Part shown: one piece after another, positions 1,016-31,782 of the stretch
How the letters are laid out: each line of letters begins with the position of its first letter
Position numbering within the stretch: position 1 is the first letter of the stretch
Source: Perkinsus olseni
Lineage: Eukaryota
Direction of reading: 5' to 3'
Length of the DNA stretch: 33,761 nucleotides
Assembly (NCBI GenBank): GCA_013115125.1
Contig: JABANN010000383.1
Location: 1 to 33,761, forward strand
Translations under genes and position numbers: made by a program
Notes under the pieces: generated by a model
What the model was told of the DNA's origin: nothing
Seen by the model: the letters and a program-made list of their open reading frames with translations, nothing else
The model's database searches: none

Positions 1016-1355
1016 TGTTGCGTACGTGTATTGCCTCCCAACCAAAGGCTTCCTCAAGGCGCAGAAATCCCTTAACTTGTGCGTGCCCCAGGGTAAGGGG
1101 TATAGCTCAGCGCAACTACAATTAATGGTGCAAGAATAGCCATTCTCAGCCTCTCACACCGAAATTCCATGACACAAAAGTAAGTAAGTTAGTGAATAAG
1201 GAAACTAGGCACACTGGTAACCTCAGAGTGACTTAGCCTAGATAGACACAATGTCTAACTACAGCCTGCAACAGAGGGCGAGTTTGTACGCGTGTACAGA
1301 GCGGGACAGTCTCCATTTAACCCACTGATGGAGCCTTGAAACTGTCATAATGACA
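1016..1355 (-). mobile_element. Solo/remnant LTR, same family as the LTR at 5439-5796
   Basis: On the minus strand it begins TGTCA and ends CAACA. Long blocks are reverse complements of 5556-5796 (e.g. cattctcagcctctcacacc vs ggtgtgagaggctgagaatg; ctcagagtgacttagcct vs aggctaagtcactctgag). No PBS follows it and no target-site duplication was seen. Confidence 0.65.
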
Positions 1356-5880: not shown

Positions 5881-6204
5881 ATGGCAGAAGTTGAGGAGCA
5901 GTCGAAGACGGTTGCGCCGTGCCCAACCTTCTCGGGTGATGATGGAAATCAGCCGGGTTCTCAACTTGACCCCTCTCTTGGGTTTGAAAGGTGGCACTCA
6001 AAGTTCTGCACATACTTGCAGCTCAAGGGCATCACTGATCCGGGTCCACAAGCTCCTGAGGGAGAACGAAACCGATTTGAGGCTAAGCGTGTGGATCACT
6101 TGAAGAACTTCCTCCGAGGGAGTGCATCCAACTTGGTATATGGCTTAAGTCATGCTGATCAGGGGTCGTACAATCGTATTCTGGCAGCATTGTGTGAGGC
6201 CTAA
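5881..6204 (+). pseudogene. Truncated retrotransposon Gag N-terminus
   Basis: PTFSG...FERW...LKNFLRGSA...SYNRILAAL resembles the capsid N-terminal region of retrotransposon Gag. It lies just downstream of the PBS and stops at a junction with inverted LTR sequence. Confidence 0.7.
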
Positions 6205-6310
6205 CTACAGCCTATAACATCTCCGAGACCGCGTCTCGTAGGAGGAGGTCCAAAATGGCAACGAATGAGTAAGACTCGCTTAAGAGTCTCTCGAAACCGT
6301 CAAATCTCAC
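6197..6310 (-). mobile_element. Inverted partial LTR fragment
   Basis: 6197-6214 (aggcctaactacagccta) is the exact reverse complement of 5557-5574. ccgagac follows, with weaker similarity (gaaaccgtca vs gaaactgtca) to about 6310. Confidence 0.5.
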
Positions 6311-9723: not shown

Positions 9724-9978
9724 ATTACTCATGTCCGACTATCTATCACCCATCATTACTCATGTCCGACTATCTATCACCCATCATTACTCATGTANNN
9801 NNNNNNNNNNNNNNNNNNNNNNNNNNNNNNNNNNNNNNNNNNNNNNNNNNNNNNNNNNNNNNNNNNNNNNNNNNNNNNNNNNNNNNNNNNNNNNNTGACT
9901 ATCTATCACCCATCATTACTCATGTCCGACTATCTATCACCCATCATTACTCATGTCCGACTATCTATCTCTCACCAT
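9724..9978. repeat. 31-bp minisatellite spanning an assembly gap
   Basis: The unit attactcatgtccgactatctatcacccatc repeats on both sides of the N run at 9798-9895. True copy number is unknown. Confidence 0.92.
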
Positions 9979-10156
9979 CGTCTCAGTGTGATGTAATGCG
10001 ATAATCTTTTGAGAGGTGGTCGCAAGACGACTACGAACATTTCTTGCATTTCGTGCATTTGTGCAAAATATGTCCGCTCGACTCCTCCGCCGAACCCAAT
10101 TGGTGAGCAGCCACTGACATCACTCTATCAGCTTTACTTGTTTCTTTTCTCTGGGC

Positions 10157-13100
10157 ATGCAGTCGTCACCTCCAGTGAATATCACAGGTGTTGTGAACCT
10201 CTCCGATTTGGGGATCAACTCCAAGGATTTCCGTTTCGGGGTCCTCACTATGGAGTCGGACAAGTAGGCTGAGTTTACTGAGCTATTAGGCTATCACTCC
10301 GAAGGACCTCTCCAATGCTTTTGGAACTCTCTCCACCAAGCGAGAATGAGAGCTAGCAGCGTCGCCGGAATCTTCGAATGGTACTCGCTGGCGTCCGATA
10401 TTGTTGATTTTAGATACGTTGCCGTAAAAGATCAGGCTCCTGATGGATCGGTACAGGTCATCACGGTGGATATGCATGATAATAATAAGGTAGTGAGGGT
10501 TCATGTTTGCCGTGGGTGGTTGTAGCTCTTGCTGTTATTAGGTGACCAGAAGGCCTATGAAGGCCGAGGCAGTTGTGATGAATCCCGTGGATAATATTAT
10601 TGCACTGAAGGGTAACGCTGGTGTAGTGACCACGAATAAGATATGCTGATGATTAGGGCGAGTTGAAGGCAATACGGGCCATTTCTTACAAGTTTTCAAC
10701 TTGGGCACGAAGGAGAAGCTCGGGTCCTATCAGTTTTCTAATGAGCACATAGTTTTCTGGAGGTGGATCGCACCCAGATGTCTGGCACTGGTTGGGGATA
10801 GGTAGGAAGTATCTTAGGTTGAAGATGGTTTTCTACGAGATTATGATGCCTTTAGATCTGTGTATCATTGGACCTTCGACAGCGCCAACTCGGCCCCTGT
10901 GAAAGTTTTTGATCGCGCTGGCAAGTTAGCCGAGAATACCACTCAGGTAGGTTGGAGAGAATCTTAGGTTGATGCACGCCTTTTGTCCAGATCATCGCGT
11001 ACGCCACTAACAGTTCCCAGACTTGGTGTGTGCTCTCCGGTATCTCGACTCCTGATGGAGGCAGGACCATCGAAGGTTCTCTCCAGCTCTTCTCCGTCGA
11101 GAGGTGAGGGCTCCTCTGGTAGACTCTTTCGTATCTCCCGTTTGCTAGGAAACAACAGCAGCTGCTTGAGGGACATGCTGCTAACTTCGCTGACGCTCCG
11201 GTAGACGACAGCGGCGAGGCGATTGGCCTGTTCAGCTTCATGGAGAGGAAAGCAGGTAGTTGTGGCATGACTCTTGCTGACGTGTTTTCAGCGATATCAA
11301 GTGATGCTAGGTTCCACTGCTACCAAGCTCCATATCATGGATCTGGCCCGTAAAACACACTACAAGGTTGGTGTGGACGTGCCGATGCCCGCCGAGAACC
11401 CCAGCGACTTCGCCGTTTCCCTTCATATCAGCCCTAAGTAAGCGCCCCGGCGTTGGGAGTCTTGACTCAGTCTTTCCCGCAGGCACGGTATGGTGTATGT
11501 GCTGACCAAGGGAGGCTACGCCTTCGTTTTTGACATCGGCAGCGGAGCGTTGCTGTTCAGAAACAAGGTGTCTCAGGATAGCATCTTCATTGCCACTTAT
11601 AGCGATGGTAATAACATGGATTTTACTTGCTTCGCTCCGCTGTGACTCGTCGCTTTTCTCAGAGACTGGTGGCGTCCGTTTTGTGAACCGAGGTGGTCAT
11701 GTGATCAACTTCGGTATAAACGTTGACGCTATAGTGCAGTACATCACTAACAGCATGCCCCAGGTGAGATTGCCGTTCCCTGTGAGCCTCAGGGCACTTA
11801 TTCTGGGACACTCTTTGATGCTCCCCGGGATTATGGGGTGGCGAACTTGACTCGCCACGGCTTGTGCCTGTAGACGGTTTACGGCGTATATTCTTAATTG
11901 ATTCGAGGGGAAACCTTTACGAGTTGCGACCATGCGAAATCCGAGGTTGAAAGATTCCATTCTCACATAATACGCAACTCTTTTTAGCTCTCCAATCGAC
12001 AGGATGTCGCCTTTAACCTTGCCAGACGATACGGCCTGCCGGGAGGTCAGGAAATGTTCCAGCAGCAGTTTACCAGGTAGAGGCCTACCTGAAACCTCTG
12101 GCTGACGCACTTTGCATCTGACCACCTTCGACTTCAGATATTTTGCAGCGGGTGACTTTAAGCAAGCTGCTCGTATTGCCGCGCAAGATGCCTCTGGCTC
12201 GTTGAGGTCTCCGGCCACCATTCAACAGTTCAAGAATGCCCCCTCGATGCCCGGCCAGAGCACGCCTCTTCTCCAGTACTTCTCAGCTCTGTTAGAGAGC
12301 GGACACAAGTAATATAAAGATTTTGTATTCTGGGATTGACCCTGGGTCTCACGAGTACCGATTGTTTGGCTTCTCGCTCACAACTATCGGTTGGCGTGGC
12401 TAGCGATACGTGGACGAGTCCGTACGGAATCCTCATTGATCGCTAGACTTGACTGCTCTTAGGTTGAATGAAAGCGAGTCGATGGAGCTTGTGGGCCCGG
12501 TCGTAGCCCAGGGGCGTCGGGAATTCATCGAAAAATGGCTAAGTGAAGACAAGCTCACTTGCACTGAGCAACTGGGGGATATGGTCAAGCCTTTGGATAG
12601 CAAACTTGCTCTATCGGTCTATCTCCGTGCCCAGTGCCACGATAAGGTCATTGCTTGCTTCGTTGCCGCTGGGGAGTACGACAAGGTTGTCCAGTATGTG
12701 AAGCGGGTGAACTACGCTAATGCTGATTATGGCGGGATGCTGAGGACAATTGTCGCCACTAACCCTGAGGGGGCGGTCAAGTTTGCGAAGGACCTGTTGG
12801 ATAACAACCCGCCGTTGATTGATATTAATAAGGTAGGTTTCAGGGGTCACGGTGGAGCCGGTGAAGAGATGTGGTGTAGGTGGTGGATTCCTTCATGTCG
12901 CTGGGCAAGCTACAGGAGACGACTTCGGTGCTATTGGATTATCTCAAGGATGACAAGCCTGAGCAAGGGCAGCTGCAGACCAGGTTGTTGGAGATGAACC
13001 TCATGCAAGCTCCTCAGGTAGGACGGGCTTTCGAGGTGAGGTGGGTGATGCTCTTGGTCGTGTCTAGGTGGCAGAAGCGATATTCCAAATGAACATGCTG

Positions 13101-16100: not shown

Positions 16101-18338
16101 GGTCGGTCCGTCGTCGCTTAGCTGGTGGTCCTGCATTTGGCGTGTTTGTGTAGGTCCTTTTCCAGTCTATTCCAAACAACGCCAAGTTGGCCTCCTGTTA
16201 CGTCAACTTGGGCGATTTCTCGGCTGCCATTGAGGCCGCTAAGAAGGTGAGGACTTTAATCTTCCGCTTGTCTTTGCTAGTGAACTCTCGTCAGGCGAAG
16301 AACCCCCGCACCTGGAAGGAGATCTGCTTCGCTTGTGTTGCCGCTGGGGACTTCCGTTCGGCTCAGACGGCTGGTTTGCATATTATCATCCACCCTGACC
16401 ATCTGGAGGAGGTCATCGAGGTCAGTCTTTTCACACCGCTCAATGGCTTGGTTTCGATTATGTGTCTCTGTTGAAGGTGTACGAGAACGCCGGCCGCTAT
16501 GACGAGTTAATGGCGTTGTTGGAGCTTGGCATCACTAACTCGGATGAGGCACACTATGGCATGTAGGGAGTCGTTAGTGGCTGCTGGTCTTATCGTGTAC
16601 CCCGGTGCTCTAGGTTCACCGAGCTTGGCATTTTATATGCTAAGCACAAGAAGGGCAAGTTGATGGACTTCGTCAAGAGCAACACTTCGAGACTCAACAT
16701 ACCCAAGCTTATTAGGTATATACAAATCGATGCTTCGCTCCGCTAGACGTAGTAACCATTTTCTCTGTCCAGGGCATGCGAGGCCAACTTCCTCTGGCAA
16801 GAAGCTGTGTATCTGTATGTGTCGTATGACGAATATGACTCGGCTGCTAACACCATCATCCAGCATAGTCCTACCGCCTGGTCGCAGGTAATAGTGGATG
16901 CTGGGGGAGACTCGGTCGAAGGCGTTGCGTGCTGTGCCTTTGTAGGACTTATTCCAATCAGTGATGAGTAAGGTCTCCAATTCGGAGATCTACTACAGAG
17001 CGATCAACTTCTACCTTGACGAGCATCCTCTGTTGTTGAGCGATGTAAGGCGGTGGCTGTCGAGTGAGGTACTCGGTGGATCCCCGTTATCATCGTTCAG
17101 TTACTTGTGGCGATCCAGGCTAAGTTAGATCACGCTCGTGTGATCCAGCATGTCCGTAAGGCTGGCCACTTGCCATTGATACAGGACTACATCGCCGCGG
17201 TGCAGCCGAATGCCAACATACCCCAGGTACTAGTCCCGATGCTGTCGGCTCTTGTTGTGCTAGGGTGACGTATCTTAGGTTAACGAGGCGTTGAATGAGT
17301 TGCTGGTAGAGGAAGAGGACGTGGATGGTCTGCGCAGCTCTATCGAGCATTATGACAACTTCGACCAAATTGCCCTTGCCCAGAAGTACGATATCTATTT
17401 GATGGGTGGTGTCATATCATCATCGATCGTCAGGTTGGAGCATCATCATCTCATTCAAATGCGTCGGATCGCGGCCACCTTGTATAACAAGAATGGAAGG
17501 TCAGCTCACCCCTCGGTCTGACGAATGCAGTTATCGTCTTTGACAGGTTTAAGCAGAGTATTGAGCTCTCGAAGAAGGACGGCATGTTCACTGATGCAAT
17601 GGAGTCTGCTAGAGAGAGTGGCAGTCGTGATCTCGCTGAAGGCCTCTTACGGTAGGCCCCTCATCAGTCTCCTGCTGCAGCCTGCAGACTTGCTTTCTTC
17701 CTCAGCTATTTCGCAACCTCGGAAGATGTCCCTTGCGGCCGTGAGTGCTTCTCGGCGTGCCTGTATACTTGTTATGAGCTGCTGAGGCCTGATGTGGTCA
17801 TGGAGCTGGCCTGGAAGAAGGGCTATATGGACTTCGCAATGCCGTAAGTCGCTAAGCCACTTCAGACGAATGCATCAGTCTCTCGTCTCAGTTATATGAT
17901 CCAATTGATGAGAGATTACTCGAACAGGATCGAGTCGCTCGAGAAGAAGTGGGTCAATGGGTGCTTGATAGAGCAGCGGGGATGTTTTTGATTAGGACCG
18001 AGTCATTAGCAGAAGATAAGGAGAAGTCGGCTCCGAATGACTTCGTCGAGTCCAATCCTATCGGCCTCGGTGGTCCAGGTGGTCATCTTGCCTTGATGGG
18101 TCCAGGGTGAGTAGCACACTTAGAGAGATGTTGCTCCATAATGGTCCTTCTTCTCAGTGGCGCTACGCCGTCATCGTCTCCTCAACTTGGCGGTGTAAGT
18201 CAAGGAGCCTTCGGTGCTGCACCTAGCTCGATGGGGGCCATGGGAATGAGTGGCACTATGACGCCTCCAACATTCCCACCTCGTCAGCCGTCATCGGGGT
18301 CGAATCTTGGAAACTTCCAGCCTCCAGCTTTCCGATGA
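10157..18338 (+). CDS. CHC1: Clathrin heavy chain, multi-exon
   Basis: Spliced peptides [82 protein letters not shown] and [11 protein letters not shown] match clathrin heavy chain. The start codon is approximate. Confidence 0.96.
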
Positions 18339-18619: not shown

Positions 18620-18692
18620 TCCGATATAGTCTAGCTGGTTAGGATACCTGGCTTTCATCCAGACGACCCGGGTTCGAGTTCCGGTATCGGAA
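18620..18692 (+). tRNA. tRNA-Glu (anticodon TTC)
   Basis: Cloverleaf with acceptor TCCGATA/TATCGGA, anticodon arm CCTGG-CT-TTC-AT-CCAGA and T arm CCGGG-TTCGAGT-TCCGG, followed by T6. Confidence 0.9.
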
Positions 18693-18693
18693 C

Positions 18694-18699: not shown

Positions 18700-19287
18700 C
18701 TTGAGCTTCAAGTTGCTGGCATACGTAGTTAATATTTCGATCACCTGTCACATCAGACGGATCAGAGTGCAGCACGGCTTTCTCTGGCCTACGGCTACAT
18801 CTCTCTTCAGAGAGATTATGTCTCATTCGAGCCGGACGATGTGACCGACATCGTTTCCCGGACGAAAATGTGAAAGGTCCCGAAACAAAGACTTGGAGGT
18901 TGCTAGAAGCACCGTCGAGTGATCTAATGGCCAGATTCTGGGTAGACTGGTGTTTCAAGGATCATCTATGCTCCACTTCGAATATGATAGGCATCACAGT
19001 GCATACCACACCAGGTGCGAAAAACGGAGTCACACACTAGTGAATAGGAAACTCAGCGATGACGCTTCGAGCGACGAGGATGATTGTCTTCAATCTAGTA
19101 AGGGCCCATGAGCTCGAAAGCCCCCCTAAATTCTTCACCACGCACTTGCCCGCGATCACCATTTGCCATTTGCCGAATTATCTTATATAACTATAGTCAC
19201 GCAACACAACCCAGTAATCCCTCTTGCAAGCTGAGTTTGCTGCCACGCCCAAGTTCCTTGGAACCAATGATATCCGCAAAAAGCTGC

Positions 19288-19801
19288 TTAGATGATACCG
19301 ATCCTGTTACCCACATCAAGGGCATCGAAGTCATCAGCCAACTTGACGTAGGCCTTCTTGAGACCATCGTGACGCACCAAAGTGTTCACCTTCTTGCACT
19401 TGATGTCGTAGAGAGACTCAACGGCATCACGGATCTGCTGCTTGGTGGCCTGGATGTCGCAAAGGAAGACCAGAGTGTTGAGATCCTCAATGTGCTTCAT
19501 GGCCCACTCAGAGGTCATGGGGGAGCGAATGATGCGGTACTTGTCCATCTTAGTCAAGGTGGGGGTAGCGGAGCGGGGGTACCTGAGTATATCACGATTA
19601 CAAGACATCAACGCCAAAGATGAGGAGAAGAATCCTAGCCAACCCCGAGAGGTATTACTTAGGAGCCTTGGGAGTCTGACGAGTCTTAGGCCTGAAGAAA
19701 TGGGTGTTCTTCCTGACCTTGCGGGTCTTGACCTGCACGCCCTTGGTGAGGGCGGCACCGGTCTTAGACGCCTTCGATTTAGCGTCAGTAGCAGGGGCCA
19801 T
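19288..19801 (-). CDS. RPL23A: 60S ribosomal protein L23a (uL23), 2 coding exons; intron 19583-19658
   Basis: MAPATDAK...HFFRPKT...KAPKYPR...NTLVFLCD...[18 protein letters not shown]...[12 protein letters not shown]. Confidence 0.96.
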
Positions 19802-20248
19802 CAAGTAGTTCTGGTTGGGCAGCAACAAGCTATACGATCACAATGACAATACCAATCCCTGTACATCAAATATCTTTCACGCTCTTAGAGAGATCCAAGT
19901 AGGTTGGATTAAGCCAGCCCTTCACACAACCGATCACGTCCAATACGACAATCCACCCGAGTAAGCTGACCAGCCGACTACTACCATCTAACGCAGAGCC
20001 CTCTGGGAACTAGTACATGCCTTCATACCACTCCAAAAGCAGCAATAGCAGCCCGGGCACGCTGAGGAGCCTCCAACGCCAAAACCGAGGGCCTGCGCCT
20101 GGATAATCGATCAAATCCACAGCGACGCATGGCAGTAGCGCGCGCCATTCTGATCGACTTGGCTCTTGATGCGGGACGGTGAAGACCAGGGCGGGTAGGA
20201 TGGTTGATGGTCCTTAGTAGGGTTCATTTGCTCTATTCCTTGTACTGA

Positions 20249-23200
20249 ATGGTGAAGAAGTCCATCAAGAAAGAGCGTCGGAAAATCCTCGTCCAGACGC
20301 AGGAGAAATGCCTTCAACGTAACGATGGGACGGCGGGTCGGCTTTCCGTGGCCATGCACTACGATACAACAGTAGCACTATACATCCTCACGAGGTCCAC
20401 TGACCCCGACTCTAGTAGATGGATTGTCATAATAGTGATGGTTCAGCGAACTGCTCTTCCGAAGGCAACCGTTTGCCGTTGGAGATGAGCATGTTCAACA
20501 TTGCACCGTTGAACTACTCGAACGGACACAAGTGTAGAGATTTCAGGATAACAGTTGGCTTTCGCATCATCTATAGGGCTGAGGTCATCACCGAACCGTC
20601 ATATTAGCCTCTGTTGGGTACATCATACAGGGCTGTCACGGTCCATGTTACCGCATCTGTGTCAATCCTTGCCTCGCGGAGCGACGCAGGGCTCATCAAT
20701 GCGGACCAGTGATGGCCGTCTGTCAAGTCGTATGCCTCACCACCTTCCCCACTAACTTGTTGTAGTACAAGGCCAATTAGGTGGAGCATGTTCTGTCCAT
20801 CCGAAAACAACTTTCTATTGTCGACCCACTAGCTGGTGTCCTGCTTCTTTGAACCTGATCTTAGCGGCGGGCCTGCTCGGCGTGCTTGGGTGATTTCTCA
20901 CCCAATATTGTCGGCAATACTCGGATCACATAGCATTCGATTGAATAAGGGATTTATGTAGTTTTTGGAACGGACTTGGAACGCAAAGTCGCTTGTTAAT
21001 GGGCTGGACATGAAAATCTGTAGCGGTTTAATCTCTCTAGAATCGTGAGAGGAGCCGTTTACCACCCGTTGGTGCTGATAGCATCGGAGCCGATGCATGG
21101 GCAAATTCCTGCAGGGTATTTCACCAAACTCCACCGTAACATGGGCGAAATTACTTCTCGGAAGGAGTGAAGTAATACACTAATATTCCTGGAGGAGCCA
21201 ATACTCTTCCAAATGCCCAATCAGGATAGCAATACTATTAACTATTTCATAATGCTCAGTAGCGCTACACACTGACATCCGCTCCCACGCTTTAGACGAT
21301 AGGAGGGAGGGAATAAGTCCATGCTTCTGATGAGGAGAAGTTGGTGCGCGTAGTGTGCAGGAGTGGTGGTGTTGTAGGTCATAAGACGGGTAATGCTGAG
21401 AAGATACCGGAAGGAGATGTACATATACCAAACAAGTGGAAAAGACAAGAACTCGTAGGGTGTCATGGTCGCAAAGTTGGTGGAAATGTGGTATGGCAGG
21501 TCGGAAGGCAATATCGGGAAAAGAAGAAGGTCAAAAGGGAGACCAGAAAGCAGAGGCAGGAAGCTCGGGCTAGAGGAGAAGAGGTAGTAGCGGCAGAGAG
21601 GCGGAGCGACGCATGAAATACTGCTACAGGTGGATGTTCCTGTTACTACTACCATTGAGATGATGAGGGAGCCTGATGTCACTATGCTGCCCCCTCAAGG
21701 AGATGATGAGGTCAAGGCGGATGAGAGAATGGATGAGTTCAGGTAGAAGAGGCGATCACCTTTGGTGCATAGTAGCACTTGGTGTAGGAAACTTGCCATT
21801 ATAGTGGCTTCTAGGCTTGATTCACGTCATATTACATGACGATGATGTTTTGTGCCGCCCAGGAAGTTCATTTACCTTGTATTAGCGCGTGAATAACGAA
21901 TGAGAGAAAAAAGGAAAATTTACAAGAATGATCTGAGTGATTCGATGAGCTGGGATGTTGCTCAGGCTGTCGGGTACCCCGTGGTACGCCACTCGGCCGG
22001 TATAACGCAGTTGGAAGAGCTACGTAGTTGTCCATCAGGCATACCTTCCCGACACCACCTCCCACGAGTGAGGTCCTCCCGCCAGCGTCAGCTGAGGAGG
22101 AAACTCCGAGTACCGCACCTACTACGGTTGAAGTGGGCCAGGCTGTGGGTGAGGAGGAGGATGAGGAGAGGGAACCTGTTGAGCCGAAGATCATGTTCAC
22201 GACCTCGATGGCGGTAATAAGGTTAGATGCACTGCCCAGGGATCGAACTTGGGATCTTTCCTGAGGAAGGTGGTATTGAACATACTTTCAGTATCCTTCT
22301 GAGCGGTCATACGGTTTGATTAAGGAGTTGGTCGAAGTCGTGCCGGGGATGCAGTACTTCCGGAAGAAGCATTTTCCCATCACCAAGATATGCGACTTTG
22401 CTAATAACAGAGGCTTCACAGCCGTCGTGGTAGGGAGGGGCGACTACCGTTTCCTTATTTCGTCGGAACCACTACAGGCGCATGAGAGAGGCATGCCACC
22501 CCGAGTCTGATGGACATACAACCTCGGAGCTGGGTGTCCATCTCTCGCTTCTCAGTTTCGCAGTCTATCGGTCGTTCGAGCGCTTCGAGCGTGATTTCGA
22601 TACGGCAATGTTGTTGATCCTGGTCGTCATTACGGTGTCACTGTCACTGCTTGGGTAGGTATTGTCAGAGGACAGGAAGCACGAGCCCTCCTCTCTCCAC
22701 ATCACCAGTCTGCCGGAGGGCCCCACGAGTTACTGGAGGCTTACTAGTCTCGAACTGGGAGCCGACATGAAGCACGGCGCTACATGTAGTATGGGAACCC
22801 ACCGCCGTCAGCCATCCCGTCAGCCGTAGTATGCGATTAGAACTCCGGTTCGGTGGTATTGAGGGGAAGTAACTGCCGTCGAGGTTGCAGTAAAATCAAC
22901 TGTCACTACTTTCCCGCCTTGTCACTCTACGAGCAGTATAACTCCCAGGATGCGGTGTTAGGTTAGATGCATTGAATGTTAGGTAACCCCGACGATCGTC
23001 CTGAGCTGTTGTTGAATGGCTTTGGTACGAGGCTCGGCCACAGGGTAGGAAGGCAGATAGGGAGCCTCTTCGGTAAGAACCTATTCGGGCTCGCTACTCT
23101 CGCTCATTTCCTGCCGTCCTATTACTCTGAGGGTATGGTGATGGATAGAATCCTGTCAGTGATAGGCCCGTGCCTGGAGGAGAGCAGCGGAGGGTTTGTC

Positions 23201-24045
23201 AAGTCTTGTCTCGTTGTTATGGTTTTGACTTAACCCTAGTGGTCTCTCTCTTCAACCTCCTGTGTGATTCAAGTCTGGCTCATCGAGCTGATTATTCGAA
23301 CGTCTATTTCTTGGTTCGTGGGTATTGAGGTCAATAACATCCCTAAGATACGTTCAACAATTCTTCAGCGTGCGCGTTCAGGTGCAATTCAGCCGGACTT
23401 CAGAGGTCGGAGAGTCGTCGCGTTCCATAATCAACGAGACTTCGTATTTTTCCGCCATTACCGGTAGTATGGGGTAATTTCGTTGCGGGCGGTCGTAATA
23501 TAGGGTTGCTCATCTTTCCGGGGGTTATCTCCGTCACCGGGTAGTTTGTGAAGTATAGCCATGTCGTGCTTCTCGCTAACTTTGTAATAGCCCATGAGTT
23601 GGGGTGAGAACTCCGATTATCTCCGTTCAATGGTTGTTGAACTCCGAAAGGTCTCGCCCACCAGGTACGTCTTCCGAGATCTTGAGAATGCCGAGAAGGA
23701 TGATAGATGTGCCCTGCAGGAGATAGGCCCCCGATTTACTCTCAAACTGCGGTCACTACAGCTTGGGCTCTTCGCCAAACGTAATCGGGCTGGATTGGAT
23801 CAGATCATAACCATCGTGGCGTCGTTTGAACGGCGTTTATGGGAGTCTTTTTCGAATGGCCTTGAGGAGCGTTAATGATGTTGTTTATATAATACATCAA
23901 AGGCCTATTATGAAGGTTAGGCGTGGCAATAGAGTACAGTCGTTGAATAGGGGTTCTCATCTCCATGTTGTGGGTAGGTACGGGTGAGTATGAGTATGTA
24001 TGGAGGCCCGACTCTCAAGTTAGCAGGAAGGTCTTTGCTCTCTAG
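20249..24045 (+). CDS. RPF1: Brix-domain ribosome production factor 1 (RPF1), multi-exon
   Basis: NKWKRQE, TIEMMRE, EPKIMFTT, SLPEGPT, PELLLNGFGTRLGHRVGR, FHNQRDFVFFRHYRY, LQEIGPRFTLKL and GEYEY. Exon 1 (20249-20318) joins in phase across a 1059-nt intron; this join is less certain. Confidence 0.9.
22228..22257 (-). pseudogene. tRNA 3'-half (B-box) remnant, antisense in RPF1 intron 22214-22291
   Basis: The minus strand reads AGATC CCAAG TTCGATC CCTGG GCAGTGC A: variable loop, T arm, acceptor 3' strand and discriminator. Confidence 0.65.
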
Positions 24046-24432
24046 CTCCCCAATCACATTACCAACGTCTCTTCGTCCGTCTCCAATGGTGCTGAGTTCT
24101 AGTGGTTACTACTATCTGACAGACCTCACTGCACCGATCCTCCGCTGGTCTTTCGTGCTGAATCGCTCCGTCACGTATGCCATGAAGTGCCATACTTGAG
24201 GTATTCTAACGATGGGACTTAAAGAGTCCCATGCTGTTCGGCGGGAGTTGGTTAACTACTTGTTCACAGTCCTCACTACCGCCCATTCTGAAGAGGCCGT
24301 TAACAATATCCCAATACCACTAACAACGCGAACTACTCGTTATGAACAACAAAGGGCATGAGCACAGTGACACATGTCGTTGAATAGTACTAGTGATCAA
24401 TGGGGATCTGAGACTAGCTGCAATCATCACGG

Positions 24433-27400
24433 TTACCACACCCCAGCGACTGCACCTTTGAGGTCTCCCGTCTCCGGATAACCGTTGTATACAGGCCGCG
24501 CTCGTTCAGTCGTGCCTGTAGGGCCGCTGGGCACCGCTACATCCGAATTGGCTTACTCATAGGGTACGGTCGTTTCGGAAGAATTCCTGTGGTTTTGAGC
24601 TCTTCGACCAGCAGAGAACTCTGGGGGAAGGCAGCGCCATTGGGGGAATCGCCGAGAGCACGGGTCAAGGTCGGATGCCTGCAGCGGGCGTTGCTGATGC
24701 GGTCCATCTGTACGACCACTCACCCTAGGCCGAGCGAAGGCGGCATGCCGTACCCCTGTCGACCGAATCCGGCGCTAAGCAGTCCAGACACTTTATCGCC
24801 GGGGAGCTGACCGGCACAAAATGACAGGAATTTTGTGGCGGAGCGGTCTCCCTTACCAGGACCTGGTCTCTGGCCTGCTTTATCATGTGCCTCGGATCCG
24901 CCAACTCGATCTCTCTATGGCGGAGTGTCTGAGGAGGTCATCAGTCACCAGGGGCAACAGTGACTAGAGCGGGAGACCTGCTGCATGGCCTCCATCTTGT
25001 TGGCCATCTCCAGTAGCTTTGCCTGCATCGTCTGATTGTCTCTGAGCAGCACGCATGCACACCCCTCGAGTACCGGTCGCCTTACTTCGCCAGCATTTGG
25101 TTATCATTAGCCAACTGTGATGTTTTATTGTGGTGATATCTCATCTCCAACATGAGATGCTTCACATCCTGCTGTGCATTCAATAGGGCCTCCTGAGAAG
25201 AGTGCGACGCTTCCCGACAGTTCACGACAGCGAAGCCTGCCGGATGGCTACCTGCAGATCCTTCACTTGTTTATTAGCCCTCCCGCTGGCCACCAAAGCT
25301 GCATGACCTGAACACAGTCATCGCCCATGACCGCAGCCCCACTCCTACTACCTGCTTTCCCCCCGGCGGCGGGCCCTCGAGCAGCAGCCTCGTTCTGCAA
25401 CTTGATGATCTCGTTGTTGAGCTCATGTATGATGTTATTCTGTTGCTTCATTACCTGCCCCTCACTACAGAAAGACTCCACCAGCCATCCTTACCGCTGC
25501 AGCGTTGTTGAGAGGACGATCAGCCACCGCCGACTTGTACATGTCGGCTTCGGCCTGCTTAGCCGCCAGCAGCCGCTTCAGCCCTTCCACGTCCGCAGCC
25601 TCCCCCTCCTTCGCGTTGCTCTTCGCCAATACTGTCGTGGTGGTAGACTTACGTTCCCTCTGTTTGAGTACGAAACCTGCGATCGGGCATGCCACGGTCA
25701 GCGAACCGGATCCCCCTGCTTCCCTATACCTTTTGTCTTTAGTCTGGTCATTTCCATTTTAGTGACTTCCAGTTCTCCCTGTAGACACCCTCGGCGGATC
25801 TCAGTATCGGTGAGGTCCTTCTGCAACTTCACTATCATCTGGGCCTCCTCGCCGCGGCTCTTCAACTGTTCCTCAAGTCGGGCCAGCTCCTGAGAAAAGA
25901 TACCACGTCGTCACACTCGTAACGTACGATGAGCTGCGAGACCTCTTCCTTAGCCAAGAGCGCCGTCTGCAACTGCTGTACTTGTAGCCCGAAGAGGCCC
26001 TGAGGTTCACCGCTGTTGGCCGCGGTGCCGCCAGTGACCGCCTCCAGGAGGTCCTCTGTGTCCGCCACGTAATCCTGGATGCGATGATGGAAGACTTCCT
26101 TCGAGCACGAACCTGATCCTCAGCGGCTAAGCCTCCCACCTGTATGAAATCTATCTCTTTCTGGAGAGTCTTCATGGTCTTAATCAGCGGATGCATACTA
26201 GCTTCCTCGGGTCCGCCCTCCTGGTGACCAGCCGCCTCCTCCTCATCATCATCGTCCTGGCCAAGACAAGAAGCATATTCACATGAAAGGTCTGATGCCG
26301 CACTTCCTTCCCTCCCTCCCCGTCAGCTTCAAGGTTGCCGCCATCTTCCTCAGCGGCCGCCGCCGCCGCCGCCGCCGCAGCAGCAGCGGCTTCCTCTTCG
26401 GCTATCCTCTTCTGCTCAACCTCGATCTCTCGCGCCAGGCCCGTGGCCATGACTATCGAGTTCACCACTTCCTCCATCGACGTGATCATCTCCTCCGCCT
26501 TCTCCCTGGAGGGCACCATATCGGTCTGGTCTCCAACATGGAAGCCAATCTGAATAACGACAACCACATAACACTCCGGCATCCTCTGGATCCCCCCTAC
26601 CTTGACGAGGTCTCTGAGGACTCTATGGGCCCTTCTAGCTTCCACGTTGGCCTCGGCCGCCTGAGAGTTCAGGTCCTTGATCTGTCCCTCAAGGTCACTC
26701 AGCTTGAGGAGTATCGGATGCCTAGCCGCCTCCTCAGGGACCTTCCCTCCTTCCTAAACCACTAGAGTGCTGATAGGTCAACCCACACCGATTCGAGCAC
26801 CTCCGCTGATTTGCCGAGAGCACCACTCTTGGCCTGCACCTCCAGGAGCTCAGCGGCCCGAGCCTCCTCTTCTTCTGCGTAGGATACTACCTCCATCAGA
26901 GTCTCGCAGATACCTAAACGAAGACAACTCAATACACTGGCACAGCCCCTCAGCGATGCTCGATCGGCAACGCATATTACGTTCCATAGGTTCCACCAAG
27001 CCAATGGCACTGTTGACATTGATGGTCCCCTTCCTTCTGAGCTGCTCCTGGATGAGGTCCGCCTGGGACGACACCTTCCGCTCGCCGCCATCTCCGCCGG
27101 CTGGTGATGTAGTAGGAGCAGTAACAGAGTTACTGTGTAAGATGCTGAGCTCTGCTTCCAGCTCTTGTATGCGTTCAAGCTGAGAGAACAACGCGCTGCC
27201 TCCAGGAATTGAACTTGGGACCTACCATGTCTCCAGAATCATCACCCATCGCACCACCGACTGTGAGCACGCCCAGCGCTTTCAAGTGGCACAGGTCCTG
27301 ATCGGCCCTCTCCTTGAACAGCCACGTCTGGAGAGTCTCCGAGTCTGATATCCTCAGCTCGCCTCTCTCTTGGAATGAGAACAGCCCCGATCCCTCATGC

Positions 27401-30400
27401 TCTCGCATAATCAGCTTGTAAGTCTCATCGCCGACATGCGGATGGGTGGGGACGCCTGTCTCAGCAAGCCACTCGGCGATCTGCACGCCCGGGCCGAAGA
27501 AGGCGTACTGCGGCGCCTTCGCTCGGCCGCCAATGACACCAGCGTAAGCGAGGCCGGTATTGACGCCTATCTTCAGTTTAAGAGTTTGTCCTGTACTACC
27601 GATCTTCAATTGTTCGGCTGAGAAAAAATACTGGAACCGAGAATCGAACTCGGGACCTACTGCGTGTTAGGCAGTCGTCATAACCAACTAGACCATTCCA
27701 GCGATGCTACGTAGACAAATTCACCCGACTAGTGAGCGCACGAGTACTCACCCTTCAACAACTTGCTGGCGAACCTCAGAGCCACCTCCGTGTGTTCATC
27801 GCTCGTCGACTCGTGGCCACATACGGCAAGGAAACGCTCTCCATTGGACAACACGGGATACATACCATTGTCTTTACATAACTGGTCGAAACTATTAGTC
27901 ATTTTATTCATCAACACCACCAACTGTGTGACCGGCACAGCCTGATAATCGAGATACTCCTTGCGCATCAGCCGCAAGGGCACAGCCTAACTCACCTGCG
28001 TGATGAGAGGGAACTGATGCACAACTGCCGATACGCAGCTGACACATTCCAACTTGTCGGCAATCATAGTGGCGCCTCCTCTCAAGCGATTGATGATGAA
28101 CTTGGGCATAACCCTGCCCATAACCTAACGCCAATGAGATGTCGATCCGAGTCAGCGTCTTGAGGTCGCTGGCACCTCGTAATTCACTTTCGCCTTGTTT
28201 TCATGCTGAACGTGATAACGGTTACGTATGAGAGCAAAGATATGGTCAATGATGATGGGAAGATTCTCGTCCGTGATGGGCTTGGTGTACACCGCTGTAG
28301 CACCTCGTCGAATGGCCTCTACGTGACTGGACGCCTCGGTTGACTTGGTTACCACTAAGATGGGCACCTGAGTCTAGATTTTCACAACCTCATGACCACT
28401 ACTACCAACAGACCGACTGAACAACATGGTGAAGGCCGAAGCACACTGGCCCCCCACCCAAGGCGACGAACTATGTACCGCCCACTGAACTGATCATTCG
28501 TCATCGAACAATCGACGAAGTGTCTCACAAGCAGAAAACGGAGAGCCATATAATGACGAGAATGAAGCGAGGCTCCGGTTGGAACCTCCGCAACGAGAGA
28601 GGTTCATATATACAAGTGGTTCGCCGAAGAATGCTTCGTGAAGTAAGCGGCCTACGATAACCCCTTAGAGACACATCCTCACCTCCGGCGGCTTCTCCCT
28701 TCTAAACTGGCTCAAGAACTCCAGCCCAGGCAGATTGCCGGGCAGCTCCGTCTCCATGATAACAATATCAGGCATTGGATGCATGTTGAAGTAATCCAGA
28801 GCCGCAAAGCCGTCAGCGACGGTATTGGTCTTGTAAGCTCGGTCCACCAGCATCGGCCGCAGGATGGTGGCCGTATCGTCGCAGTCATCAATCACTAACA
28901 CCTCCTTCACTGCGAGCTCGTTAATAGTATTCTGCAGATCTTCCTGATCGTCCCCTTCCCCCGCCAACCCTTCATCAGCCATAACCTACCAAGCACAGCA
29001 GCTCAGGTCAACAGTACCACAAGGGAATCGCACTACCATTTTTTGGGCTAACTCTTTCTTTTGGGCACGCTTCTTGCTCCTTGCCTCCACCACTTCACGA
29101 GCGTTGCACACTAGATCGATGAAGAACGTAGCTGAAAAACAGGCCACCACTGCAACGACAACGATCCTCCATAGTCCCCTAGCTCCTCAATTCAAACGGT
29201 TCGAATCAAACCAGAGCTAATTGTTCGCCATTCCCTGAGAATATGCGACAGGTTTCCGACAATCAGGAAACCTGACTCTGGAGTCTCGAATCGAGAAGAG
29301 CCCTTAGACTGAAGCCTCATGTGAAGGCGATTCCACCATGCGGAAGCACCGACATTCCGAAGATCCCCAACCTTACTCCCCCGTCCCGGCTCAGATTCAC
29401 ACCATAATCTCCCACCGTGGAGGTTAACAACTTCATTCGACACCGATAGACCCAGACCCAGGCCTTCGTATCTGAGGTTCACCCCACAATACTACACTGG
29501 TCATCACAGCCAGCACCGTCAAGAGCCATCGACTGATTGCATCATAAACTGCGCTGCACTGTAACGGCTAGAGAAGGCTAGCTCCACCACAGGCAAGCGA
29601 CAGCCTAGGCCCATCAGTAGTAAAGGGATCGCTCATAAGACAGGAAGGACACCACTATGCACTACAGGCAATACACTGCAGAGCGACGGGCAATCGCAGC
29701 TCATGCATTAGCGAGGCGGCTGGTCGGGGTGAGCACACGTTCACCTACTTTCGGTTCTCATGATCATCATCCTCCTGCTCGAACTCTGTGAATATTCGCT
29801 TCACATTCTGGTCGGCGATGCCAATACCGGTGTCCACTATTTTAACCAACACCTAGAATGCCACCAGTGGGAATCGAACCCGGGATCTACTGACACTCAC
29901 CCCTCTGGCCTTGCTCTTGGTCACCACCTTCACAGACCCCTTGGATGTGAACTTGCATGCATTATTGATCATGGCCGACAACACATAGTGGAGTCTGATA
30001 ACACCGCAAAGCGTCACTGCGCCACGAAATTCTAGCCTAATCTTCGCCGGTTCATCCTGCGCGAGTCACTAAGACGCCGACCTTCCCGCTAACAGAGCTG
30101 TCCCTATGTAGATGACAACCCACGCGTCTCTCGACTGTCTACGCAGTACACAGTAGCACGCTCGACTCCCCACCACCGTCCATGCCCCTCATAGACGATT
30201 TGCTACCAATCGAGGACCACCTCAATCAGGTTTTCACATTTCACAATTTTCTTTAGTGCTACCTTCCTTCACCGCAATCGAAATATCGATGGTGTATTCG
30301 ATGCATCCGGGCCTACCTCTCTCTATCGCCTTCAACTTCCGGACACGCTGGGTCCGGCAAGAAGCCCAAATCCACCTTATCCTTCTTGATCTTCCGGCCC

Positions 30401-31782
30401 CTCTTGTCCACGGCCTCCATCATCTCTCCGCACACTTGCTCGCAAATCTCGTTAACCTATGACAATTCTCGCGCGCCACGAAATTGGCGGAGTACACTCC
30501 TACATTAACCACGCCGAAATTCAACTGCATTTTCTTCGCCTTCAGCGCCGCAATGTCCATTATCTCATTCACCAATGCCAATAACCGGACCTGCTCCCCG
30601 CCAGGAAAAACTTCGCTCCGCTAAAATTCTCCATTTCATACAGCGCAATTATTGATGATATCCAAGTGTTTCTTCCTGCCCGGATTGGGCTCCGTCATCC
30701 TGAGGGACTCAGAGAGGCCAATGACCCCATTGAGGGGAGTCCCTGCAGCAGCAGCAGCAGCACTGGCAATGCGACAGGGGAGGGCGACCCTACTAAGTTC
30801 GTGATTGACGGTTGCCATGAAGCTGTCCTTCTTGTGTTCCAATTCACATATCTTAGTGCAGTCCCGGAGAATAGCGCAGAGCTTGTAGTCAGTAGGGTCA
30901 GAGTCGAAACTGCATCGTGAGGAACAGGGAATATTCAGCAGCGTCTTCCTTCCACTACTCTACAAATGATCGCGAGTCAGGGGCTGTACGGCCATACTGC
31001 GGGAGCAGGAGAGGTGGTGCTCCCAGCACGAGACAAAAACTACTACTGCACTCTTCACCACTAGGAAGCTCATTCCGCGCGTGAGAGCATGGCCTCCGCG
31101 AGTAAGGACGTCGTATTTTTGGCGGTGGGTCTCAGATGAGGACATAAAATTGGCGAACAAGGAAGGCAGTGTACCGTCAGGCCCGGGAATAGGGAGTTCG
31201 ATTCCGCAAACGAGGACCTCAATCCCATTCCGTAGATATGGACAGCAATTCCATGATTAACGAAAACGATTTCGTCGATGAGGACATCAATTTCAGGGAT
31301 GCGCCTAAGCACCGTGACCGCTTCTCACAGTATCGAGACAAATAACGAGCTCGGCGTGACCTGGCCGTCTTTGTGCTTAACTTCAACGTTCCTGCTTTCA
31401 TCCACGTTGATCTCTGAAGGGAACTTTCACCATACCACACTTTTCCGAACTCCTAGACTACTCGGGCGTCTGGTGGGATCCGTCGCCATCGCCTCATCTG
31501 CTTTCTTGACGAATTGTTGCAGCAACATATCATGCCCGACCGCCACTCTGTCCGGCATTAGCATCTTTATATCCCGACCTATCAGCTCCTCTGCTTTGAA
31601 CCTAAAGATACTCCTGTCGATGTTTTTGCATCGCTCCGCTAGAATTACCCCGTCCAGGTCTCGGATTGGCTGTTCCCATATAGGATCTTGCCTTGCCGGT
31701 CCGCTAGAATGACTAAGTCGTTTGAAACCTCAGCAAAGGAGTCGACGCCCCGCCAGAACGCATTATTCTGGCAGTCCACCAT
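24433..31782 (-). CDS. Hybrid sensor histidine kinase: PAS, HisKA, HATPase, pseudo-receiver, degenerate class III nucleotide cyclase, coiled-coil tail
   Basis: PAS ([14 protein letters not shown]...[10 protein letters not shown]...RDCT), H-box NHELRTPLNG, N-box NNACKFT, G1 DTGIGI, G2 GLGLGL, receiver (VLVIDD...PDIVIMET...YTKP), cyclase fold (KIGVNTG..AGVIG..PQYAFFG) and an E/Q/L-rich tail. Gene ends and single-gene continuity were inferred by manual splicing. Confidence 0.85.
27194..27223 (-). pseudogene. tRNA 3'-half (B-box) remnant filling most of the 46-nt intron 27180-27225
   Basis: Donor GT, then AGGTC CCAAG TTCAATT CCTGG AGGCAGC G, then CGTTGTTCTCTCAG. Confidence 0.65.
27623..27628 (-). 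terminator. Pol III terminator (T6) of tRNA-Val, overlapping the intron polypyrimidine tract
   Basis: Minus strand ...TTCCAGTA TTTTTT CTCAG|exon. Confidence 0.8.
27629..27702 (-). tRNA. tRNA-Val (anticodon AAC), intronic, sense to the host gene
   Basis: GCTGGAA TG GTCT AGTTGGTT ATGAC G ACTGC CT-AAC-AC GCAGT AGGTC CCGAG TTCGATT CTCGG TTCCAGT A forms a complete cloverleaf inside intron 27618-27751. Confidence 0.95.
29859..29888 (-). pseudogene. tRNA 3'-half (B-box) remnant inside the 48-nt intron 29853-29900
   Basis: AGATC CCGGG TTCGATT CCCAC TGGTGGC A. The stretch CAGTAGATCCCGGGTTCGATTCCC matches the neighbouring tRNA-Val at 21 of 24 positions. Confidence 0.65.

What the first reader, a model, noticed from the sequence alone, without database searches (positions are those of the whole stretch)
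22228..29888. Recurrent tRNA 3'-half (B-box) modules built into short spliceosomal introns
Seen: three short introns within 8 kb (22214-22291, 27180-27225, 29853-29900) each contain a 30-nt block in exact tRNA register 5+5+7+5+7+1, of the form AG[AG]TC CC[AG][AG]G TTC[GA]AT[CT] CC... ending GC plus a purine. No D arm or A-box was found, and all three lie on the minus strand. A fourth intron holds a complete tRNA-Val. The acceptor strands all differ (GCAGTGC, AGGCAGC, TGGTGGC), so these are not recent copies of one element. T-stem pairing is imperfect while the B-box core is kept. Known: isolated B-boxes bind TFIIIC without Pol III transcription (ETC/COC sites in yeasts) and organise chromatin. 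Inference: intronic tRNA genes shrink to minimal intron size while the B-box is retained as a DNA element, or tRNA fragments seed or remodel introns. One copy is antisense to its host gene, which favours a DNA-level role.
Basis: partly seen in the sequence, partly recalled or inferred. Interest (0 to 1): 0.78.

Follow-up and report, generated by a model that had tools for sequence, protein, structure and literature searches.

The report
tRNA T-arm relics inside Perkinsus introns
Three very short introns of a Perkinsus (mollusc parasite) contig carry 20-30 base leftovers of tRNA genes next to an intron that still holds a whole tRNA gene; they look like debris of a genome crowded with tRNA genes, and a working role is not shown.

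Summary
One intron is RNA-supported; two rest on spliced protein alignment plus annotated Perkinsus orthologues. The window is Perkinsus, about 99-100% identical to P. olseni proteins.

Only part of the "30-nt tRNA 3'-half in exact register" holds. What is shared is the variable loop, the 5' T-stem strand and the T-loop (tRNA positions 42/44-62). Positions 63-73, the "acceptor strands", are near background.

- **S3 (29859-29892):** robustly tRNA-derived, 20/22 identical to the neighbouring tRNA-Val, reached by 0 of 100 and 0 of 200 shuffles.
- **S1:** marginal on its own.
- **S2:** no better than chance once its GTAGGT, the commonest 5' splice site here, is removed. It does match S1 at 17/19, with the same T-stem mismatch.

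B-box-like 11-mers are about 3-fold enriched in 46 introns (6 against 1.8 expected). A-box-like ones are not enriched.

Best reading (0.55): non-functional relics of intronic tRNA genes, trimmed to normal intron size in a tRNA-rich genome. Rivals that cannot be tested here are TFIIIC-bound solitary B boxes and a tRNA-derived intron-forming element. No whole genome or orthologous DNA could be reached.

The parts
22214..22291 (+). 78-nt phase-0 intron of a Brix-domain ribosome production factor 1 (RPF1/IMP4-like) gene; hosts S1 in antisense
   Evidence: GT..AG joint in RNA contigs of runs X7, X10 and X11. The junction TSMA|YPSERSYG is present in 3 of 3 annotated Perkinsus proteins.
22228..22257 (-). 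S1: T-arm-like block (variable loop, T stem 4/5 paired, T loop TTCGATC, unverifiable tail)
   Evidence: It matches the tRNA-Val 19-mer at 15/19. Local score 22, rank 3, reached in 5 of 200 shuffles. Rfam gives no tRNA hit.
27180..27225 (-). 46-nt phase-0 intron (GTAGGT...CTCAG) of the histidine kinase-receiver-cyclase gene; hosts S2 in sense
   Evidence: Spliced alignment. The junction [15 protein letters not shown] is present in 3 of 3 annotated orthologues. The reading frames fit. No RNA joint was shown.
27194..27223 (-). S2: T-arm-like block, 17/19 identical to S1, with the same CCAAG/CCTGG stem mismatch
   Evidence: The score against the true tRNAs falls to 18 (not significant) once the 5' splice site is trimmed.
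29853..29900 (-). 48-nt phase-0 intron (GTGAGT...CTAG) splitting the HATPase_c domain; hosts S3 in sense
   Evidence: Spliced alignment. Pfam HATPase_c continues across the junction at profile positions about 39/40. The junction KARG|VL(V/I)KIVDTGIGI is present in the P. chesapeaki protein.
29859..29892 (-). S3: the robust tRNA-derived block. CAGTAGATCCCGGGTTCGATTC is 20/22 identical to tRNA-Val positions 40-61, with a perfect B box GGTTCGATTCC. The tail overlaps the GTGGCAT intron motif.
   Evidence: 2 mismatches, and 0 of 100 shuffles gave any match; score 34, reached by 0 of 200 shuffles. add support. Rfam sees only a 13-nt T-loop match.
27618..27751 (-). 134-nt phase-1 intron holding an intact tRNA-Val(AAC) gene at 27629-27702. 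Its T6 run, TTTTTTCTCAG, runs straight into the 3' splice site.
   Evidence: ARAGORN and Rfam (64.5 bits). Spliced alignment. The junction LLK|AEQLKIG is present in 3 of 3 orthologues.
31195..31205 (+). Weaker B-box-like 11-mer AGTTCGATTCC (TAGGGAGTTCGATTCC) in an uncertain long intron of the same gene, antisense to it
   Evidence: Local score 22 against tRNA-Val (rank 2, reached in 15 of 200 shuffles).
29198..29208 (+). Weaker B-box-like 11-mer GGTTCGAATCA in the 245-nt intron 29132-29376, antisense to the gene
   Evidence: Only 1 of 5 T-stem positions pairs.
18620..18693 (+). Intact tRNA-Glu(TTC), in a stretch with almost no RNA cover (context: second tRNA gene in 33.8 kb)
   Evidence: Depth table.

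Best explanation
The blocks are non-functional relics of tRNA genes, or of one pseudo-tRNA family, that once lay inside introns. The intact tRNA-Val still lies that way in the same gene.

Perkinsus carries very many dispersed tRNA gene copies, and its genes are packed with roughly 50-nt introns. tRNA copies can therefore survive only in introns and spacers. Deletions then trim the intron back to the usual size (inferred). What remains is a 20-30 nt piece: variable loop, 5' T-stem strand and T loop. In S2 and S3 this piece now serves as the filler between the 5' splice site and the 3' signals.

Shown: tRNA-relatedness (strong for S3; S1 and S2 related to each other), intron location, the intact intronic tRNA, and normal intron sizes.

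Inferred: the order of events (whole gene, then deletion) and the absence of a present function.
For: 1. S3 matches the neighbouring tRNA-Val at 20 of 22 positions. No shuffle gave a match (0 of 100; 0 of 200).
2. The S1 19-mer hits S2 with 2 mismatches. Both share the same A-C mismatch in the T stem, which points to a common defective source.
3. Identity to tRNA-Val is equally high outside the B box (positions 42-51: 6, 9 and 9 of 10) and inside it (9 of 11 each). That is expected for descent, not for B-box-only selection.
4. An intact tRNA-Val sits in a 134-nt intron of the same gene, 11 nt from the 3' splice site. The sense relics S2 and S3 end 14 and 6 nt from theirs.
5. The relic introns are of ordinary length: 46, 48 and 78 nt, against a median of 53 for 47 introns.
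6. tRNA genes are highly multicopy here. In DNA run X8 many contigs share only the tRNA-Val sequence and diverge at its borders: 15 loose ends at 27627/27629 and 9 at 27702/27704. Summed depth there is about 7,700, against 60-120 nearby (the tool warns that depth is not copy number). [quoted passage not shown]
7. No cloverleaf, A box or D arm is found. With ARAGORN relaxed to 80%, 1 of 26 extra calls overlaps S2 and none overlaps S1 or S3.
Against: - Only one window was examined: 47 introns, of which 32 are inferred by homology only.
- S1 is marginal and S2 is not significant against the true tRNAs.
- In an all-against-all comparison of introns, S1 x S2 scores 27. That is no higher than the best pair in 2 of 5 shuffled sets.
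- All three relics keep the same part of the tRNA. Random trimming would not obviously give that. B-box-like 11-mers are enriched in introns (6 observed against 1.83 expected; 4 of 300 shuffles reach 6) while A-box-like ones are not (3 against 2.04; 62 of 200). This asymmetry is what a retained-B-box model predicts. It is also expected from detection bias, because the T arm is the most uniform part of tRNAs.
- The source tRNA of S1 and S2 was not identified.
- No orthologous intron could be examined, so neither the order of events nor neutrality is shown.
Confidence: 0.55

Rival explanations
1. Solitary B boxes kept as DNA elements. The T-arm pieces persist because TFIIIC binds them without Pol III transcription, like ETC/COC sites, and this affects chromatin or transcription of the host genes.
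For: S3 has a perfect GGTTCGATTCC. S1 and S2 differ from GGTTCRANNCC at one position each. B-box-like 11-mers: 6 in 46 introns against 1.83 expected (4 of 300 shuffles reach 6), while A-box-like ones are not enriched. TTCGAT/TCGATT is the top intron-enriched 6-mer, with 10 occurrences in 5,409 nt of introns and 0 in 6,669 nt of exons. Blocks occur in both orientations relative to the host gene (S1 antisense), which fits a DNA-level role.
Against: Conservation is not confined to the B box: positions 42-51 are equally similar. With my weaker dinucleotide-type shuffle, enrichment is only 6 against 2.83 (6 of 100 reach it). Exons are depleted of many words for coding reasons, so the exon contrast is weak. 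There are no binding data and no cross-species conservation data. The ETC consensus and biology are recalled from knowledge of yeasts, not tested here.
Confidence: 0.17
2. A tRNA-derived mobile or filler fragment that seeds introns. A roughly 30-nt tRNA piece was inserted into coding sequence or into introns, by 5'-truncated retrocopying or double-strand-break filling. In sense orientation it supplies a GTAGGT donor, spacer and T-rich tail, so that S2 and S3 are introns made largely of tRNA sequence.
For: The S2 intron is, end to end, tRNA-Val-like positions 42-65 followed by a T-rich tail and CAG. tRNA-Val itself contains GTAGGT, and GTAGG is the commonest donor here (9 of 47). S1 and S2 share a unit of about 22-31 nt with unrelated flanks. 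That is easier to explain by copying a short unit than by two independent trimmings.
Against: No target-site duplication or terminal repeat was seen by eye at the three introns. No family of near-identical introns appears: in 2,162 comparisons the best non-tRNA pair scores 27, equal to the shuffle maxima. Summed depth in the DNA run X8 is not raised in the bins holding S1 and S3 (99.7 and 89.4, against 60-120 elsewhere, a weak measure). No CCA follows the blocks. S3 has its own GTGAGT donor outside the tRNA-like part.
Confidence: 0.15
3. Partly chance combined with splicing signals. Only S3 is a tRNA relic. S1 and S2 are ordinary intron sequence that happens to resemble a T arm, helped by the GTAGG donor and other intron motifs.
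For: Trimmed S2 scores 18, and the rank-4 score is reached in 57 of 200 shuffles. S1 scores 22, within the range of shuffled tiles (28, 28, 26 at the top of 5,028). Rfam gives no tRNA hit for S1. The S3 tail overlaps GTGG[CT]AT, which occurs 6 times in sense introns, always 12-25 nt from the 3' end.
Against: S1 and S2 share 17 of 19 bases, with a shuffle mean of 0.01 matches at up to 3 mismatches. With the tRNA-Val 19-mer as query, the three best non-self hits in the whole window are exactly the three sites (17, 17 and 15 of 19; next best 14).
Confidence: 0.1
4. RNA-level role in splicing. The T-loop (UUCGAU/UUCAAU) serves as the branch region, or the block folds to bring the splice sites together.
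For: In S2 and S3 there is no other obvious branch-like word, and the T-loop A lies 21-29 nt from the 3' splice site. The S3 intron folds into one hairpin pairing its two ends: -15.4 kcal/mol, z -1.85, with 11 of 200 shuffles folding as well.
Against: S1 is antisense to its host. The S2 fold is no better than shuffles (z +0.61; 141 of 200 fold as well). No clear branch consensus emerged from 47 introns.
Confidence: 0.03

Closest known systems
tRNA pseudogenes and tRNA-gene fragments (tRNA-derived relics) in nuclear genomes
   Same: A partial tRNA sequence without a cloverleaf, lying near intact tRNA genes in a genome with many tRNA copies.
   Different: Here only about 20-30 nt survive. They sit in introns of 46-78 nt and make up most of two of them. 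All three keep the same part, the variable loop and T arm.
Protein-coding-gene introns that host tRNA genes (for example C. elegans; PMC4999229, seen as search listing and start of abstract only)
   Same: The intact tRNA-Val in intron 27618-27751 is such a nested Pol III gene.
   Different: The three blocks are not genes. In the tRNA-Val case, the terminator T run also lies where the polypyrimidine tract and 3' splice site are.
Extra-TFIIIC (ETC) / chromosome-organising clamp sites of yeasts, and solitary B boxes in Dictyostelium (PMC5391098, search listing only; the yeast biology is recalled)
   Same: An isolated B-box-like 11-mer without an A box. S3 matches the consensus exactly.
   Different: These blocks are inside short introns rather than between genes. 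The similarity extends beyond the B box. No occupancy or conservation data exist.
Introners / introner-like elements (PMC3609843, PMC9860276)
   Same: Introns whose body is a recurring sequence unit.
   Different: There are no near-identical copies, no terminal repeats or target duplications, and the unit is only about 22-31 nt. The main text of the 2022 survey mentions neither Perkinsus nor tRNA (supplements not seen).
tRNA-derived SINEs
   Same: Dispersed tRNA-related sequence carrying a B box.
   Different: There is no A box, body or tail, and no sign of high copy number at S1 or S3 in the DNA run laid.
Dada transposons that target tRNA genes in Perkinsus marinus (PMC3706591)
   Same: The same genus. 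The paper documents the unusually large and disrupted tRNA gene population.
   Different: Dada elements are 4.7-11 kb and insert at a fixed site in the D-arm region. Nothing of that kind flanks the three blocks.

Membership tests
Functional tRNA gene | Complete cloverleaf recognised by tRNA finders | tested here: not met
   ARAGORN and the Rfam tRNA model find only tRNA-Glu and tRNA-Val. Site-only Rfam scans give a 13-nt T-loop match for S3 (7.2 bits, E 0.17) and nothing tRNA-like for S1.
Functional tRNA gene | A box / D arm upstream of the B box | tested here: not met
   No similarity to the 5' halves of the two true tRNAs next to the blocks. A-box-like words are not enriched in introns (3 against 2.04 expected).
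tRNA-derived relic (pseudogene fragment) | Sequence similarity to a genuine tRNA beyond chance, extending outside the B box | tested here: met
   S3: 20/22 to tRNA-Val, with 0 of 100 and 0 of 200 shuffles reaching it. Positions 42-51 match at 9/10. S1 is marginal, and S2 qualifies only through S1.
tRNA-derived relic (pseudogene fragment) | An identifiable source tRNA species in the same genome | not testable with these tools
   No whole genome is held. Only two tRNAs are available for comparison.
ETC / solitary B-box TFIIIC site | B-box consensus (GGTTCGANTCC; consensus recalled) without an A box | tested here: met
   S3 is exact. S1 and S2 have 2 mismatches to GGTTCGANTCC and 1 to GGTTCRANNCC.
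ETC / solitary B-box TFIIIC site | TFIIIC occupancy without Pol III | not testable with these tools
   No binding data are available.
ETC / solitary B-box TFIIIC site | B box conserved between species above the flanking sequence | not testable with these tools
   No orthologous DNA was found. The divergent DNA run X8 covers the region, but the per-base difference table was cut.
tRNA-derived SINE | tRNA-like head with A and B boxes, plus a body and tail, in many copies | tested here: not met
   No A box. The flanks are splice signals or unrelated sequence. Summed depth in X8 is not raised in the S1 and S3 bins (a weak measure).
Introner / introner-like element | A family of highly similar whole introns, often with terminal repeats or target duplications | tested here: not met
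   In 2,162 intron-pair comparisons within the window, only S3 x the tRNA-Val intron (34) exceeds the shuffle maxima (24-27). This was a window-scale test only.

The most novel reading that the evidence does not exclude
Perkinsus introns systematically carry tRNA T-arm (B-box) modules. Either these are TFIIIC landing sites embedded in Pol II genes, or tRNA pieces are a raw material from which this lineage builds and resizes its roughly 50-nt introns. In the second case the tRNA's own GTAGGT and terminator T run would supply the donor and the polypyrimidine tract. If the window's rate (3-5 of 47 introns) held genome-wide, thousands of introns would be involved.
Probability: 0.15. Interest if true: 0.7.

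Novelty: new member of a known kind. Interest (0 to 1): 0.35.

Why it matters
If these are only relics, the finding is a small but clear picture of how a genome with a very large tRNA gene population and tiny introns disposes of dead tRNA copies. It is also a caution that intron motifs can mimic parts of a tRNA: GTAGG donors, and GTGG[CT]AT near the 3' end.

If the B-box asymmetry proves real genome-wide, it would point to one of two things. One is extra-TFIIIC sites inside genes of an alveolate parasite. The other is a tRNA-based route of intron formation. Both can be tested with existing Perkinsus assemblies.

Tried and rejected
- **Orthologous DNA.** The metagenome scan gave 3 distant loci (29-43% identity), which were not used. 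Scans of genome contigs and viral contigs found no relative.
- **ORF-called proteins reading through the S2 intron.** None found.
- **Reads.** The divergent DNA run X8 covers the region, but only 40 of 1,046 differences and 15 of 51 joints were printed. Conservation of the blocks and RNA joints for S2 and S3 therefore could not be read.
- **Rfam at permissive thresholds.** No tRNA hit for the sites, and nothing for the TAGCGGAGCGA intron.
- **Relaxed ARAGORN.** At 80% it made 28 calls, mostly noise, one of which overlaps S2. At 70% it made 149 calls. Rejected as uninformative.
- **A tRNA-Glu-like 23-mer at about 9284-9306.** Score 26, within the null range. Rejected.
- **Weaker look-alikes seen by eye.** Introns 25677-25729, 26075-26139 and 31414-31461 did not stand out in any scored test.
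- **Branch-site reading of the T loop.** No clear branch consensus emerged.
- **My dinucleotide-type shuffle.** It is only a partial shuffle, so its numbers are conservative.
- **Literature.** Searches listed no paper describing tRNA-like modules in Perkinsus introns. This is listing-level only, and supplements are closed.

Full report
**What the window is.** The exon between the S2 intron and the tRNA-Val intron is 99% identical to a Perkinsus olseni protein and 95% identical to P. marinus and P. chesapeaki proteins. The exon after the S1 intron is 100% identical to a P. olseni "ribosome production factor 1". The window is therefore a Perkinsus contig (Perkinsozoa, parasites of molluscs).

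RNA contigs show many GT..AG introns of 45-78 nt. Combining the 15 printed RNA joints with 32 introns from my spliced alignment of the 1,529-aa P. chesapeaki orthologue gives 47 introns. Their median length is 53 nt, and 30 of 47 are 60 nt or shorter. This agrees with Zhang et al. 2011, who report that most Perkinsus introns are under 100 bp (PMC3101222, passages read).

**Host genes.**
- S1 lies antisense in a phase-0 intron of a Brix-domain RPF1/IMP4-like gene on the + strand.
- S2, S3 and the intact tRNA-Val lie in sense in three introns of one minus-strand gene. That gene encodes a histidine-kinase ATPase, a receiver domain and a class III cyclase (Pfam).

**Is the observation there?** Yes for sequence and coordinates.
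- The S1 intron is supported by RNA contigs of 3 of the 4 runs laid.
- The S2 and S3 introns rest on reading frames, on the spliced alignment, and on annotated orthologues that run straight across the junctions. The gene has little RNA cover, and no joint for these two was among the 15 of 51 printed.
- ARAGORN and Rfam find only tRNA-Glu (18620-18693) and tRNA-Val (27629-27702). There is no D arm or A box at the sites.

**Is it more than chance?** The pattern written from the three sites finds them, but that test is circular. Tests that do not depend on the sites give the following.

| Test | Result |
|---|---|
| tRNA-Val 19-mer as query on the whole window | best non-self hits are exactly S3 (17/19), S2 (17/19), S1 (15/19); next best 14/19 |
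| tRNA-Val 22-mer, up to 3 mismatches | finds S3 with 2 mismatches; 0 of 100 shuffles gave any match |
| Local alignment of both true tRNAs to 46 introns, splice-site ends trimmed | S3 scores 34 (0 of 200 shuffled sets reach it); ranks 2 and 3 are intron 31040-31261 and S1 at 22 (15 and 5 of 200); S2 falls to 18, within noise |
| S1 19-mer as query | finds S2 with 2 mismatches; shuffle mean 0.01 |
| All 47 introns against each other | only S3 x tRNA-Val intron (34) exceeds shuffle maxima (24-27); S1 x S2 scores 27 |

S2 loses its score because its GTAGGT is both tRNA-Val positions 42-47 and the commonest donor type here (GTAGG in 9 of 47 introns). S1 and S2 share the same CCAAG/CCTGG stem with an A-C mismatch.

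My reading is that S3 is certainly tRNA-derived. S1 and S2 are two copies of one T-arm-like unit, but their tRNA origin is probable rather than proven.

**What exactly is shared.**

| tRNA positions | S1 | S2 | S3 |
|---|---|---|---|
| 42-51 | 6/10 | 9/10 | 9/10 |
| 52-62 (B box) | 9/11 | 9/11 | 9/11 |
| 63-73 | 4/11 | 5/11 | 4/11 |

The common unit is therefore the variable loop, the 5' T-stem strand and the T loop. It is not a full 3' half. The T stem pairs at 4, 4 and 3 of 5 positions.

With small gaps the tails look alike (CCTGG..GCAG.GC), but this is not significant on its own. The "acceptor" of S3 overlaps GTGGCAT. The word GTG G[CT]AT occurs 6 times in sense introns, always 12-25 nt from the 3' end, once antisense, and 15 times in the whole window on both strands. 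It is therefore more likely an intron signal.

The claim that only the B-box core is kept is not borne out, because positions 42-51 are equally well kept.

- B-box-like 11-mers (GGTTCRANNCC, up to 1 mismatch) occur 6 times in 46 introns (5,275 nt, both strands). Shuffles give 1.83, and 4 of 300 reach 6. With my weaker dinucleotide-type shuffle the figures are 2.83, with 6 of 100 reaching 6.
- The six are S1, a second word in the S1 intron, S2, S3 and two antisense words at 31195-31205 and 29198-29208.
- A-box-like words are not enriched (3 against 2.04; 62 of 200).
- In an unbiased word count, TTCGAT/TCGATT is the most intron-enriched 6-mer, at 10 against 0 in exons.
- There is thus a modest, roughly 3-fold excess of T-loop-like words in introns. 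This fits either a retained-B-box model or the simple fact that the T arm is the part of a tRNA that looks alike in all species and is therefore the only relic one can recognise.

**Context.**
- The intact tRNA-Val lies 11 nt from the 3' splice site of its 134-nt intron. Its T6 run reads straight into CTCAG.
- The sense blocks S2 and S3 end 14 and 6 nt from their 3' splice sites.
- In DNA run X8 many contigs share only the tRNA-Val or tRNA-Glu sequence and break at their borders. Summed depth there is about two orders of magnitude above the neighbours (the tool warns that this is not a copy number).
- A genome with that many tRNA copies and hardly any non-coding space other than short introns should hold many decaying copies in introns.

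**Explanation.**
- **Relics (0.55).** Most likely these are relics of intronic tRNA genes, or of one defective tRNA-like source for S1 and S2. They were cut back by deletion until the intron reached its usual size and now serve only as spacer.
- **Solitary B boxes bound by TFIIIC (0.17).** Supported only by the B-box/A-box asymmetry and the mixed orientation.
- **A short tRNA-derived unit that seeds introns (0.15).** This is attractive for S2, whose whole length is tRNA-like sequence plus a T-rich tail. However, there are no target duplications, no high-identity family and no copy-number signal.
- **Mostly chance plus splice signals for S1 and S2 (0.10).**
- **An RNA-level splicing role (0.03).** The S3 intron folds into a hairpin joining its ends (z -1.85; 11 of 200 shuffles fold as well). 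S2 does not, and S1 is antisense.

**Comparison with what is known.** Intronic tRNA genes, tRNA pseudogene fragments, solitary B boxes (ETC/COC; recalled) and introners are all known kinds. The blocks pass the test for "tRNA-derived relic", with S3 passing clearly. They fail the tests for functional tRNA, SINE and introner. The defining tests for ETC sites (occupancy, conservation) cannot be done here.

Seven literature searches listed no paper on tRNA-like modules in Perkinsus introns. The main text of the 2022 introner survey mentions neither Perkinsus nor tRNA. Supplements were closed and might hold species lists.

**Limits.**
- Only one 33.8-kb window was examined, and 32 of 47 introns are inferred by homology.
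- The introns around 30910-31261 are doubtful.
- No genome was available and no orthologous DNA was reached.
- The read tables were cut.
- Whether the three blocks are typical of the genome, and whether their B boxes are constrained, remains open.

Noticed in passing
window 16735-16745, 30613-30623, 31631-31641 (exact); 11632-11642 (1 mismatch): The 11-mer TAGCGGAGCGA (wider form T[CT]TAGCGGAGCGA[AT]G) recurs in four short introns of three genes. It always lies on the genomic minus strand, so it is sense in two hosts and antisense in two. Three exact copies of an 11-mer are far above expectation, though the word was picked after the fact. There is no Rfam match. Its origin is unknown.
   Followed up: partly
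window introns starting 21455, 22214, 25677, 25890, 29853, 31414: GTGG[CT]AT occurs 6 times in sense orientation in 47 introns, always 12-25 nt before the 3' splice site, and once antisense. It is a candidate Perkinsus intron 3' signal, possibly the branch region. GTGAC is also enriched there (4 against 0).
   Followed up: partly
window 27618-27751: The Pol III terminator T run of the intronic tRNA-Val (TTTTTTCTCAG) lies exactly where the host intron's polypyrimidine tract and 3' splice site are. One stretch appears to serve both transcription systems.
   Followed up: partly
window 22270-22280 (minus strand): The S1 intron holds a second T-loop-like word, TGTTCAATACC, 33 nt upstream of the S1 T loop on the same strand. 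Only 2 of 5 stem positions pair, so it may be chance.
   Followed up: no
window 9724-9990, flanking the N run 9798-9895: A tandem repeat with a 31-nt period (at least 5 copies seen by k-mer positions) surrounds the assembly gap.
   Followed up: no
window about 1215-1300 (+), 5520-5610 (-), partial copy at 6201-6215 (+): A dispersed repeat of about 55 nt or more (…CTCAGAGTGACTTAGCCT…CTAACTACAGCCT…) is present as an inverted pair plus a partial third copy.
   Followed up: no
window 24466-31782 (minus strand): One gene fuses a histidine-kinase ATPase, a receiver domain and a class III adenylate/guanylate cyclase domain, followed by a long coiled-coil-like tail. The spliced alignment gives about 32 introns.
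   Followed up: partly
window 19218-19831: A short minus-strand gene with one 76-nt intron has a summed RNA-contig depth about 100-fold above its neighbours in three runs. It was not identified.
   Followed up: no
window 29853-29900 (minus strand): The S3 intron folds into a single hairpin in which the bases just after the 5' splice site pair with those just before the 3' splice site, with the T-loop at the tip: -15.4 kcal/mol, z -1.85, 11 of 200 shuffles fold as well.
   Followed up: no
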